The notes beneath the pieces are model-generated. The model ran no database searches, was not told the origin of the DNA, and was given only the letters and a program-made list of their open reading frames with translations. Shown here one piece after another: positions 15,983 through 54,379 of a stretch of 64,000 bases of DNA. The position numbers were made by a program, and so were the translations under genes. The stretch's first letter is position 1. The number at the start of each line of letters is the position of its first letter. This DNA is from Octopus vulgaris (Eukaryota). The stretch covers positions 45,012,001-45,076,000 of the forward strand of contig OX597828.1 in NCBI GenBank assembly GCA_951406725.2, written 5' to 3'.

Positions 15983-40035
<24,053 letters not shown>

Positions 40036-40947: not shown

Positions 40948-41624
40948 TATACTGTAAGTTCAGCTATACATATTGTGTAATATATTAATTATGATACACC
41001 TGAGGACGTAGCATAAATTCTACATTATTTTGAAAGATTTTTTGGCATTTTGCATTCATGCAGACATGTAATTTATTTATTATCAAATATGATATTCTTT
41101 TATTTGTTTCAGTCATTTGACTGTGGTCATGATGGAGCACTGCCTTTAGTCAAAGGAATCAATCCCAGGACTTATTCTTTGTAAGCCTAGTCTCTTTTGC
41201 CAAACTGCTAAGTTATGGGTATGCAAACACAACATCGGTTGTCAAGCAATGGTGAAGGACAAACACAGATACATACATACACACACATATTTATATATAT
41301 ATATATATATATAAGAGGAGCTTCTTTCAGTTTCCATCGACCAAATCTACTCACGAGGCTTTGGTCAGCCAGAGGCTATAGTAGAAGACACTTGCCCAAG
41401 GTACCATGCAGTGGGACTGAACCCAGAACCATGTGGTTGGAAAGCAAGCTTCTTACCACACAGCCACAAAACAATTTGTTGTGATACTTGAATTCTCTTA
41501 TAAGACTTGATATGTATACATATGGTGCAGTATAAGCTATGGTACTCATATAATATAGTGTAAGTTATGATATTCATATTATAAAGTACTATTTATATCT
41601 TAGATGTTTTTGAAAACAACTTAC

Positions 41625-42075
41625 ACATGCAAGTGCTACCAGTCGAGAGCTCCACATACCAGAAGTCAGCAAGTGTATGGGGTCATCAGGAGAGAATGCG
41701 TGCTGTTTCGGGGCCCACCTCTTAATGGCATCAATGTGCACTGGCTCCCCTCACTGATATGAGGCCCCGCTTGCTAGATCAACTGGTTATCAAATAAGGC
41801 TCAATATTCTTCTAGCCATTGTTCATCGTCTCTTTTTAACCAAATCCAGTGGCTAACCTTTTCCACTGTAGTTTGGTCATGGTGGTATTGACTTTACGAT
41901 GAGTTAGGCCTAACGATAACAAGTCGCCTTACACTGTGTCCAACAAACCCTCTACATCCGACTTTGATGGGAAAATGCTCCACTTTCCAGCCTGCATCTT
42001 CATATTCCTTGAGGAGGTTTACATAACGGTCAATCTTTTGGCCCTGAGTGGTGTCCATGTTATCTTCATGAAGAA
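41625..42075 (-). mobile_element. HERO-like (RLE) non-LTR retrotransposon 3' fragment with 3' UTR
   Basis: RYVNLLKEYEDAGWKVEHFPIKVGCRGFVG, then after a frameshift QTTVEKVSHWIWLKRDDEQWLEEY* (stop 41801-41803). Confidence 0.75.
41677..41729 (-). ncRNA. Non-circularly permuted hammerhead motif (decayed) in a HERO-like 3' UTR
   Basis: GCCAUU-AAGAG..GUGGGCCCC-GAAA-CAGC..CUCUC-CUGAUGA-CCCCAU, about 70 nt after the ORF stop. Confidence 0.5.
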
Positions 42076-42498
42076 CCATAATAACATAATTTATTGTAAT
42101 CTTATATCTAATGATCATAATGCATGTATATACTATATATGTAACCAAAACTCTGAACAAACTTTTGAATCAATCTAATATGATAGCACAGTCCTAAACA
42201 TACTAATTTCATTATAGCCATGAGAATACTGATAACAGCAACAACATAGGAAGACTACAACAATAACAACAACATTGGCGGTGCCCCAGCATGGCCACAG
42301 CTCGTAAGCTGAAACTAGATAAAAAAAAATTTGTGTCAATTACAAAAGTAATAATGCAAACTACAACATTGTTTATATATGTATATATACACTTTTAATT
42401 AATTCTTGAAAATTTGATATTTTTGTTTTTTATTAAATTTTAAAATTAAATTAAAAGAAATTGCTTTGTTTCATTAATTAAAATGAAAATATGATCAC

Positions 42499-42513
42499 CT
42501 TTATTTCAGGCTG
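42499..42513 (-). CDS. Candidate 15-nt microexon (QPEIK) of NCKX
   Basis: Long pyrimidine tract followed by ttcag|CAGCCTGAAATAAAG|gtgatc; frame-preserving; the donor is weak. Confidence 0.3.
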
Positions 42514-42574
42514 CTGAACAGCAAGAATGAGAAAGCGAAGTAGAAGAGTAATAACAGCAGTGACAAGAGTATAT

Positions 42575-42995
42575 CACCAGGAGTATATCACCAGGAGTAC
42601 CAGGAATAGCAGCAAGTGTAGCAGCAGAAATGTCAGGAGTAACAGCAAGTGTAACAGCAGGAGTATCAGGAGTATCAGCAGGAGTGCCAGGAGTAACAAC
42701 AGGAGTATCAGCAGGAGTAACGGCAGGAGTATCAGCAGGAGTGACAGGAGTAACAGCAAGTGTAACAGCAGGAGTATCAGGAGTATCAGAAGGAGTGTCA
42801 GGAGTAACAACAGGTGTAACAGCAGGAGTATCAGGAGTATCAGCAGTAGTAAAGACAGGAGTATTAGGAGTATCAGCAGGAGTAATGGCAGGAGTATCAG
42901 GTGTATCAGCAGGAGTGACAGGAATAACAGCAAGTTTAACAGCAGGAGTAACAACAGGAGTATCAAGAGTAACAGCAGAGTATCAGCAGGAGTTG
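42575..42995. repeat. Degenerate 9/12-bp minisatellite (agcaggagt-atc/aac)
   Basis: Repeating caggagt units; produces spurious ORFs on both strands. Confidence 0.85.
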
Positions 42996-43249
42996 TTACA
43001 ATAACAACAATAAGAACGCCAGCAATAACCAAAAGGAAGAGAAAAAGAAATAAAAAAGAAAAAGAAGAAAAGAGAGAAAAACATGAGAAATCAGTGAGAG
43101 AGAGAGAAAGATGAAGAGAGAGATAGAAAGAGAGAGAGTGGGGTGAAAAGGAAAAGAGAGAGAGAGAGACATCAGAAAATGTATTTATTATTTGAAAATT
43201 AAGGTTTGAGAAGGGGAGAAGTTAAAGAAGAAAAAGAAGCAACAGTGAA

Positions 43250-53282: not shown

Positions 53283-54379
53283 TATATTATATTTATTATT
53301 TTATTATATTTAAATTTTTTATACTTTTTGGTTAGTTTAAAAAAAAAAATTAAAAGTTAAAAAATTTAAAAGCTTAAAAATTTTAAAATTTAAAAATTTG
53401 AAAATGTAAAAATATAAAAATTTATAAATATAAATTTTAAAATTTCAAATTTTAATAATTTAAATTTTAAATTTTATATATATATTGTATATTATATTAA
53501 TTATATTTATTTTTTTGTTTTTTATGTTTTGGTTTATGTCTATCACTGTTTAAGTTGCCTAATAGTGGTTTTATCTCTAATTTAATTTATATATATATAT
53601 ATATCTGCCTGTTTGTCTGTTTCTCTCACTCTCTCTCTCTATATAAAAAAAAAGTAAAGATACCTATTGGTCATGGATGACCATGGGATTGCACCAAGAA
53701 AGTTCTCCTCTGTGGCTCAAGTCTGAGAAAGGTTGTTTATGAAAGACTAGCAGTCATCCATGCATGCCAGTCTCCTCTCTCCATGCCACCGATGTTATCC
53801 AAGGGAAAGGCAAAGGCCGATACAGCTAGGCACCTGCGACATCGCAACTCATTTCTACAGCTGAGTGAACAGGAGCAACAGGAAATAAAGTGTCTTGCTC
53901 AAGCATGCAATGCACATATATATACACACACACACATATATATATATTTTATCTTTTACCTGGGGCACTGCCTTGAAATACTTTTAGTTGAATGAATCAA
54001 CCCTGGTACTTTTTAAAATGCTGATACTTATTCTGTTGTTCGTTTTGGTTGAACTGCTAAGTTATGGGGATTTAACCAAACCAACACTGGTTGTCAAGGA
54101 GTTGGTGGACAAACACAGGCACACATGCACACACACACATGCATGCTCACATACATGCACATACAAGACAGGCTTCTTTCAGCTTCCATCTGCCGAATCC
54201 CTGCACATGTCTGTGGTTAGACCAAGGCTATAGTAGAAGTCAAATACCCAGGGTTCCACACAGGGGTACTGAATCTGGAAACAATTCGGGAAGCAAATTT
54301 CTTGCGGCACAGCCAGGCCAGTGCCTACATATACACATATGAATATTGGTATACATACCAATATATATATATGTATGTG

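What the first reader, a model, noticed from the sequence alone, without database searches (positions are those of the whole stretch)
41677..41729. Second permuted hammerhead sits about 70 nt after the stop codon of a HERO-like RLE retrotransposon
Seen: on the minus strand the ORF ends ...VSHWIWLKRDDEQWLEEY* (41801). It is followed by GCCAUU-AAGAG / GUGGG..GAAA-CAGC / CUCUC-CUGAUGA-CCCCAU, the same C-B-A layout as at 32462 but with different stem sequences. The stem III mismatches (GCCAU/ACAGC) are what CpG decay of GCCGU/ACGGC would give. Flanks (ggggcc.ca upstream; ggagct..tggtagc downstream) are shared with the 32.3-32.56 kb fragment. Inference: a LINE family carries a rearranged hammerhead in its 3' UTR, unlike the 5' HDV-like ribozymes known from R2/RTE elements.
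Basis: partly seen in the sequence, partly recalled or inferred. Interest (0 to 1): 0.8.

Follow-up and report, generated by a model that had tools for sequence, protein, structure and literature searches.

The report
Split-stem hammerhead ribozyme in LINE retrotransposons
A family of animal jumping genes carries near its 3' end a conserved RNA fold with the complete hammerhead ribozyme core wired in an order we did not find in print, which likely cuts itself and is predicted to trim back-to-back copies into single-unit RNAs; the copy in this window is a decayed one.

Summary
The site is a decayed, 5'-truncated copy of a high-copy R2-group (HERO-like) LINE. Majority letters across the family restore the GUC triplet and stems I and III. 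Of 63 relatives found by protein alone, 50 carry a four-helix motif, against 0 of 120 viral control loci. Stems I and III covary. The bases before GAAA do not pair with the strand after CUGANGA; they pair with a strand about 20 nt upstream of the cut site (G10.1-C11.1 in 38 of 45; swap control 0/5000). A fourth helix, with a kink-turn consensus in 30 of 45, extends stem III. The fold reads as Eckert's type-SGC hammerhead circularly permuted and opened between A9 and G10.1, which that paper assumed uninterruptible. One family shows the U3-A8 core swap. At least 13 of 63 loci are head-to-tail tandems. Cleavage and its role are untested.

The parts
41608..42082 (-). 5'-truncated, decayed copy of a high-copy R2-group (HERO-like) non-LTR retrotransposon
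   Evidence: 4998, 4190, 357 and 2585 contigs laid in four runs; depth spans about 41608-42076; heterogeneous AT-rich loose ends at 41608-41610; protein match from 42082
41801..42082 (-). C-terminal remnant of the restriction-like endonuclease domain, frameshifted, stop codon 41803-41801
   Evidence: 90 hits; 41% to L038 over 94 aa; 35% over 51 aa to AAN12398.1
41744..41748 (-). upstream strand of stem II (positions 10.1-10.5), pairs with 41710-41714
   Evidence: 4 of 5 pairs in the window, 5 of 5 with family majority letters; covariation in relatives
41736..41742 (-). 5' strand of the fourth helix (IIIb), pairs with 41695-41701; followed by a 6-nt bulge (41730-41735) where most relatives have a kink-turn consensus
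   Evidence: 5 of 7 pairs in the window, 7 of 7 in the family majority
41719..41729 (-). block S: stem III strand 41729-41725, H17 at 41724, predicted cut between 41724 and 41723, stem I strand 41723-41719
   Evidence: stem III 3 of 5 in the window and 5 of 5 in the family; stem I 4 of 5 and 5 of 5; triplet AUU in the window, GUC in the family
41695..41718 (-). 4-nt linker, stem II strand 41714-41710, GAAA 41709-41706, stem III strand 41705-41702, IIIb strand 41701-41695
41683..41694 (-). stem I strand 41694-41690 and CUGAUGA 41689-41683, the 3' end of the predicted ribozyme
41608..41682 (-). 3' tail of the element, about 75 nt, with no poly(A) in this copy
   Evidence: 71% identity over 186 nt of 3' UTR to L038
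32323..32577 (+). second, approximately 250-bp 3' fragment from another subfamily, inserted in a SINE-like repeat; predicted ribozyme 32444-32507, cut after 32466
   Evidence: stems I 5/5, II 5/5, IIIb 8/8, III 4/5; the only strict-scan hit in the window, against 1 hit in 100 shuffled windows; empty-site copy at 53687-53747

Best explanation
HERO-like LINEs carry in their 3' UTR a conserved four-helix RNA with the complete hammerhead core, in which stem II takes its first strand from upstream of the cut site; it likely self-cleaves and is predicted to cut read-through transcripts of head-to-tail copies into unit-length RNAs whose two ends would re-pair and rejoin. Shown: the strand order (II' - IIIb' - III' - UH | I' - II'' - GAAA - III'' - IIIb'' - I'' - CUGANGA), covariation of all four helices, and frequent tandem junctions. 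Inferred: (1) the kink in stem III bends IIIb back so that the outer ends of I, II and IIIb meet, in place of the usual loop-loop contact; (2) the core cleaves after UH; (3) the two products stay held by about 16-17 base pairs, so a cut-to-cut unit RNA rebuilds the whole ribozyme across its own ends and can ligate to a circle or be copied across the nick; (4) reverse transcription starts at the tail end, which would explain why DNA copies keep an intact ribozyme and why running past one round gives tandems. The window copy is probably inactive.
For: Unbiased sampling: loci came from a protein search. 50 of 63 loci with at least 250 nt downstream score 16.5 or more of 20, against 0 of 120 viral loci that have both core words; 0 of 630 shuffles and 0 of 63 reverse strands. 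In 45 distinct cores (mean identity 0.56), with the triplet not forced: U16.1 in 43, position 17 C/U/A 18/14/13 and never G, the first two pairs of stems I and III 45 of 45. Upstream stem II: 38 of 45 score at least 4.5 of 5, against 3 of 45 for any downstream strand; G10.1-C11.1 38, G-U 2, C-G 1; 90.7% paired on a structure-blind MAFFT alignment, 0/500. L013, with an open 1165-aa frame, has U3 with A8; L008 and L011 have U3 with G8; C3-G8 to U3-A8 is a reported active covariation (PMC3088659, passage). Eckert's cleaving SGC-1 and SGC-3 constructs have an extra U between A9 and G10.1 (my reading of the oligos). Tandems: next copy's 5' start or ORF follows the tail in 13 of 63 long loci plus L055; of 7 located 5' starts, 5 have the core within 160 nt upstream. 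An R2 RT copying across non-continuous templates is known (reference title only).
Against: No cleavage assay and no informative RNA data. No natural or engineered hammerhead opened at A9|10.1 was found to prove the core works this way. CUGANGA and GAAA were required by most scans, so their invariance is partly by construction; the core-blind scan hit the exact core in 29 of 52 high scorers and one base off in 15. 50 of 63 long loci show no following copy. L010 is a tandem of two elements only 70% alike, and several others are 90-96% alike, which fits template jumping or insertion beside a copy better than rolling-circle copying. Tandems come from metagenome assemblies that can collapse repeats (L013 is a circular contig). 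L009 has a 5' start with no ribozyme upstream. No pile-up of 5' ends at the cut site was seen in the loose ends shown.
Confidence: 0.45

Rival explanations
1. Active ribozyme, linear route: the upstream copy's ribozyme makes the uncapped 5' end of the next unit, as the HDV-like ribozyme does for R2, and aids cap-independent translation, while the element's own 3' ribozyme stays uncut long enough to be copied.
For: The ribozyme lies about 50-150 nt before the next 5' start in most tandems. The first Met lies after the N-terminal zinc finger in 3 of 10 ORFs where the finger was located. L003 begins 1 nt after the predicted cut and is 92% identical to its 3' copy. Ribozyme cleavage can support translation initiation (PMC13725137, passages).
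Against: It predicts 5' repeats that begin at the cut; L001 and L016 begin 21 and 25 nt before it. It needs one ribozyme copy to cut and an identical one not to.
Confidence: 0.25
2. The fold is a non-catalytic or barely active scaffold that the element's protein recognises, like the structured R2 3' UTR, with the hammerhead core kept for shape.
For: It sits where LINE proteins bind their template (recalled). DNA copies retain it whole. The backbone is open at A9|10.1. Rfam gives no hammerhead hit.
Against: Position 17 is never G in 45, position 7 varies, G10.1-C11.1 is kept, and U3-A8 occurs in one family. That is the pattern expected of selection on catalysis.
Confidence: 0.15
3. Active ribozyme acting as a brake: slow cleavage removes or destabilises the template end unless the element's own protein binds first, enforcing cis preference or limiting activity.
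For: Most loci (50 of 63) show no following copy, so cleavage in monomer transcripts would separate the ORF from the tail. Natural SGC ribozymes are slow.
Against: The products stay paired by about 16-17 bp, so cutting alone would not release the tail. It does not explain the tandem junctions.
Confidence: 0.12
4. One reading: an ordinary type-SGC hammerhead whose stem II strand directly follows CUGANGA.
For: The pairing is 5 of 5 in the window copy. A loose descriptor with such a stem finds 30 of 63 loci.
Against: 10.1-11.1 in that register is G-C in 5 of 45 and a pyrimidine mismatch in 35. No covariation. One pair is broken in the family majority.
Confidence: 0.03

Closest known systems
Type-SGC hammerhead ribozymes (HRIMA-1 and variants; Eckert et al. 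2023, PMC10085705)
   Same: Order S-G-C, full core, short linker from stem I to stem II, and a fourth helix on the G-to-C linker. Joining an SGC's ends and opening it at A9|10.1 gives this layout (my inference).
   Different: In SGC the stem II strand follows CUGANGA; here it lies 5' of the cut site. SGC was reported from metatranscriptomes, with none in genomes of known organisms. Here it is in animal LINEs, often with a kink-turn consensus.
Hammerheads of Penelope-like elements and retrozymes
   Same: A hammerhead in the terminal repeat of a retroelement that forms tandems, with proposed monomer and circular RNA intermediates (PMC6765202, passages).
   Different: Those are mostly type I three-way junctions with very short stem III that cleave as dimers, in elements with other enzymes. 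This is a pseudoknotted four-helix form in an RT plus restriction-like endonuclease element.
HDV-like ribozyme of R2 elements
   Same: Same retroelement group (single ORF, RT, zinc finger, RLE); processes co-transcripts.
   Different: Different ribozyme class, located at the 5' end. This one is at the 3' end and survives whole in DNA copies.
HERO clade / Zebulon of Tetraodon (AAN12398.1, BAC82599.1, BAC82598.1; names recalled)
   Same: L001, which carries the motif, is 68% identical to AAN12398.1 over 1102 aa. A tandem-structured Tetraodon element was published in 2003 (Bouneau et al.; title only).
   Different: No ribozyme is reported for HERO in the searches made. The window's family is a distant branch: its nearest locus L038 is 39% identical to AAN12398.1.

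Membership tests
Hammerhead ribozyme | Core CUGANGA, GAAA, U16.1, H17 | tested here: met
   Present in the window; GUC in the family majority; U16.1 in 43 of 45 and G17 in 0 of 45
Hammerhead ribozyme | Helices I, II and III flanking the core, with G10.1-C11.1 | tested here: met
   All three covary; stem II uses an upstream strand
Hammerhead ribozyme | A9 joined to 10.1 directly or by at most 1-2 nt | tested here: not met
   Position 10.1 lies about 20 nt 5' of the cut and A9 is the 3' end of the fold; rule as stated in PMC10085705
Hammerhead ribozyme | C3-G8 tertiary pair | tested here: met
   C3 with G8 in most loci, U3 with A8 in L013, U3 with G8 in L008 and L011; a single compensatory event
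Hammerhead ribozyme | Match to an Rfam hammerhead model | tested here: not met
   No hammerhead hit up to E 10 at either window site
Hammerhead ribozyme | Site-specific self-cleavage after H17 | not testable with these tools
   No assay; the runs laid were contigs only
Type-SGC hammerhead | Block order S-G-C with a short I-to-II linker and a fourth helix | tested here: met
Type-SGC hammerhead | Block C includes the stem II strand 3' of CUGANGA | tested here: not met
   45.9% paired, 101/500; 419/5000
R2-group (RLE) non-LTR retrotransposon | Single ORF with RT, zinc finger and C-terminal restriction-like endonuclease | tested here: met
   Met in relatives: RVT_1 in 6 of 6 locus ORFs, zf-RVT in 4 of 6, best solved matches are R2 proteins. 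The window holds only the endonuclease end, which has no Pfam hit.
HERO clade | RT phylogeny with named HERO members against NeSL, R4, CRE and R2 | tested here: inconclusive
   No named outgroups were available. The C-terminal tree groups L001 with the two pufferfish proteins (100/99) but places L038 on a long branch. The HERO labels for those accessions are recalled.
HERO clade | No fixed target site | tested here: inconclusive
   Heterogeneous AT-rich 3' flanks in the window's family, but frequent insertion next to other copies in relatives
Kink-turn | 3-nt bulge followed by tandem G-A/A-G between two helices (consensus recalled) | tested here: met
   30 of 45 relatives. Not met at the two window sites or in L038 and L044, which have a 4-6 nt bulge on the other strand.

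The most novel reading that the evidence does not exclude
A hammerhead permutation outside the six proposed ones, opened inside the catalytic core and braced by a kink-turn, is a clade-wide part of HERO LINEs. It cuts and circularises their RNA, so that a restriction-endonuclease LINE replicates through a ribozyme-made circular template and builds its own tandem arrays.
Probability: 0.35. Interest if true: 0.92.

Novelty: new variant of a known kind. Interest (0 to 1): 0.82.

Why it matters
It would add a hammerhead topology that breaks the three-block rule used to enumerate all permutations. That would explain why descriptor and Rfam searches missed it although it sits in thousands of copies in animal genomes. 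It would move non-circularly permuted hammerheads from anonymous RNA replicons into a tractable retrotransposon, with fish relatives at 91-93% identity to L001 over its C-terminal 424 aa. It gives a testable reason for the tandem structure of these elements, and it bears on how R2-group proteins, now used for gene insertion, recognise and copy their templates. A hammerhead whose two halves stay paired after cutting is also of use in RNA engineering.

Tried and rejected
No whole genome was held. Rfam over the whole window returned microsatellite-driven miRNA hits in the 150 of 600 rows shown. The short-fragment protein search found nothing. The viral collection holds no relative of the protein. 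No RNA holder was listed on record, and the runs laid were contigs, so ends and expression could not be read. Alignment A1 was too divergent to search with. A helix between the linker and the tail, which I first proposed from the window's family, was not supported for the two distal tail segments (4618 and 368 of 5000; 94 of 5000 for the nearest, among 12 pairings tried). A closing helix between 5' flank and tail was not significant (1189 and 320 of 5000). The script crashed after printing; three loci misregistered there were re-registered. Stem I was off by one and was corrected. The scan missed both window sites because its spacing range was too narrow; widened. The model R1 hits to the two window sites are by construction. 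Named HERO sequences were not found in two papers' supplements (one file not searched). Bouneau 2003 is not held. One search used whole-word matching and is a weak negative. No target-site duplication was recognised at the finding's site.

Full report
OBSERVATION. Upstream lies the end of a restriction-like endonuclease domain. It is frameshifted, cut off at about 42082, and ends in TGA at 41803-41801. The 53-aa piece has no Pfam hit but finds 90 proteins among the representatives. No genome was held, so I laid public contigs on 41540-42140 at 80% likeness. Four of 24 listed runs were laid and gave 4998, 4190, 357 and 2585 contigs covering about 41608-42076. This is a high-copy family. Its majority letters restore stem III (3 of 5 to 5 of 5), stem I (4 of 5 to 5 of 5) and turn the triplet AUU into GUC. 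The variant table showed 40 rows and hid 47, so the family picture is incomplete. The window copy alone scores 14.5 of 20 on pairing, which 5 of 120 control loci reach.

WHAT IS KNOWN OF THE ORDER. SGC ribozymes cleave at 0.007-0.19 per min, and none was found in genomes of known organisms. The authors assumed that CUGANGA and its adjacent paired strands follow one another directly.

RELATIVES. I searched by protein only. An alignment of 12 endonuclease ends gave 80 loci, the best of 292 confirmed, from metagenome contigs, 3 from genome contigs and none from viral contigs. Of the 83, 63 have at least 250 nt after the match. A scan for all six block orders found SGC in 30 of 63, GSC in 2 and no others. 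Controls: 0 of 63 reverse strands, one CSG in 62 coding stretches, 0 of 630 shuffles. Without a stem II requirement, 51 of 63 have the GAAA...CUGANGA layout. In 45 distinct cores (mean identity 0.56; three re-registered), with the triplet not forced, position 16.1 is U in 43 and position 17 is C 18, U 14, A 13, G 0. The first four pairs of stem I hold in 43-45 of 45 and those of stem III in 42-45 of 45, with several pair types.

In the contiguous register 10.1-11.1 is G-C in only 5 of 45, and swapping strands between elements costs little (419 of 5000). The five bases before GAAA instead pair with a strand that starts 19-20 nt before U16.1 in most elements. That strand scores at least 4.5 of 5 in 38 of 45, against 3 of 45 for the best downstream strand, with 0 of 5000 swaps as good. 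The first pair is G-C 38, G-U 2, C-G 1, and pairs 2-5 each show 4-5 types. On a structure-blind MAFFT alignment of 47 sequences, the upstream helix is 90.7% paired (0/500; slid controls 26-51%), and the contiguous one 45.9% (101/500). Related sequences can beat shuffles, but the slid controls and compensatory changes support the helix. A fourth helix pairs the strand behind the upstream one with the G-to-C linker (0 of 5000; 80% paired). In 30 of 45 the joint to stem III matches the kink-turn consensus (consensus recalled). This branch (window sites, L038, L044) has a 4-6 nt bulge instead of the kink-turn. The 32.4 kb site fits with stems I 5/5, II 5/5 and IIIb 8/8 and is the only strict hit in the window, against 1 hit in 100 shuffled windows.

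SPECIFICITY. With the four-helix score, 50 of 63 loci reach 16.5 of 20 and 0 of 120 viral loci chosen for having both core words do. Of the other 13, ten lack the exact core in range: five have a single core change (L008, L011, L049, L056, L071), two end early (L023, L030), and L054, L057 and L074 show no motif. Three score low. A covariance model hit 27 of 38 loci not used to build it, all on the sense strand; some are close relatives of training sequences.

IS IT CATALYTIC? Untested. For: G is avoided at 17, position 7 is free, and G10.1-C11.1 is kept. L013, with an open 1165-aa frame, has U3 with A8, while L008 and L011 have U3 with G8. PMC3088659 (passages) reports U3-A8 as an active covariation of the C3-G8 pair. 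My reading of Eckert's oligos is that cleaving SGC-1 and SGC-3 carry an extra U between A9 and G10.1. A viroid hammerhead with an extra core nucleotide is also known (title only; position recalled as the same). Joining an SGC's ends and opening it at A9|10.1 gives the layout found here, with Eckert's required fourth helix as IIIb (inference). Against: I found no hammerhead actually opened at that bond, and most scans required the core words. The core-blind scan hit the exact core in 29 of 52 high scorers and one base off in 15. I put self-cleavage at about 0.8.

HOST ELEMENT. Full-length relatives have one ORF of 1100-1180 aa with RVT_1 and a zinc finger, and their best solved matches are R2 proteins. 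L001 is 68% identical to AAN12398.1 and 65% to BAC82598.1, and fish proteins are its top hits. I recall these accessions as Zebulon/HEROTn and HEROFr; no call names them so. PMC3636483 (passages) lists HEROFr, HEROTn and HERODr as non-site-specific R2-group elements. The window's nearest loci are L038 (71% over 186 nt of 3' UTR) and L044; L038 is 39% identical to AAN12398.1 and sits on a long branch. 'HERO-like' is fair; formal membership is open.

ROLE. The ribozyme survives whole in DNA, about 115 nt before the element's end here, so the copied RNA is uncut, rejoined or copied across the nick. The 5' product supplies one strand each of II, III and IIIb (16-17 bp), so the halves should stay together (inference). 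In 13 of 63 long loci, plus L055, the next copy's 5' start or ORF follows the tail. Of 7 located 5' starts, 5 have the core within 160 nt upstream, L025 has its own tail sequence (seen by eye) and L009 has neither. Dispersed 3' ends stop a few bases before that start, without poly(A), in L001, L003, L025 and L026. I therefore favour cut-to-cut unit RNAs that rejoin, as proposed for Penelope elements and retrozymes (PMC6765202, passages), at 0.45. Against it: L010's partners are 70% alike and others 90-96%, assemblies can collapse repeats, and most loci show no tandem. The linear R2-like route (0.25), a non-catalytic scaffold (0.15) and a brake (0.12) remain.

NOVELTY. Searches for HERO with hammerhead or ribozyme, for SGC after 2023, for non-circular permutation, for hammerheads in tandem retroelements and with kink-turns gave no report of this motif, judged from listings and abstract starts. 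PMC13725137, PMC6155905, PMC7650587, PMC2684134, PMC6274825 and bioRxiv 2026.07.22.740005 were seen as passages only. The library lacks most subscription papers, Repbase reports and Bouneau 2003 (title only), and bioRxiv supplements were closed, so a prior mention cannot be excluded. The scan's own index returned one unrelated note and nothing on this motif. Verdict: a real, conserved, probably catalytic new hammerhead variant in a LINE clade; this copy is decayed; interest 0.82.

Noticed in passing
window 27066-28235 (+): Remnant of another LINE reverse transcriptase, unrelated to the finding's element (23% to an RT ORF upstream in L054).
   Followed up: no
L028:2820-2900, L001:118-215 and other 5' UTRs: The 5' UTR of these elements starts with a small CUGG/CCAG hairpin and continues with repeated hairpins with purine-rich loops; several ORFs lack an AUG before the N-terminal zinc finger. 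Possibly a translation or protein-binding element.
   Followed up: partly
L037:1620-1650, L069:1940-1965, L057:1360-1375: L037 and L069 lack about 11 nt spanning the predicted cut site, between short direct repeats; L057 ends 6 nt after the cut. Could be slips of the RT at a nick, or ordinary deletions.
   Followed up: no
L018:2220-2317, L024:1941-2042: A branch with a 630-730 nt 3' UTR still has the ribozyme near the very end.
   Followed up: partly
L010:1-4900: Head-to-tail pair of two elements only 70% alike, each with its own ribozyme.
   Followed up: partly
L081-L083: Three bacterial genome records hold this eukaryote-type retrotransposon, two with the motif; probably contamination of the assemblies.
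   Followed up: no
window 32323-32577 with 53687-53747: The second fragment interrupts a SINE-like repeat at an AATT-like site; an uninterrupted copy of that repeat lies at 53687-53747.
   Followed up: partly
L074:1450-1800: A divergent endonuclease lineage (30% to AAN12398.1) lacks the motif, which may mark the edge of its distribution.
   Followed up: partly
window 42506-43114: Tandem minisatellite giving open, repetitive frames on both strands; probably non-coding.
   Followed up: no
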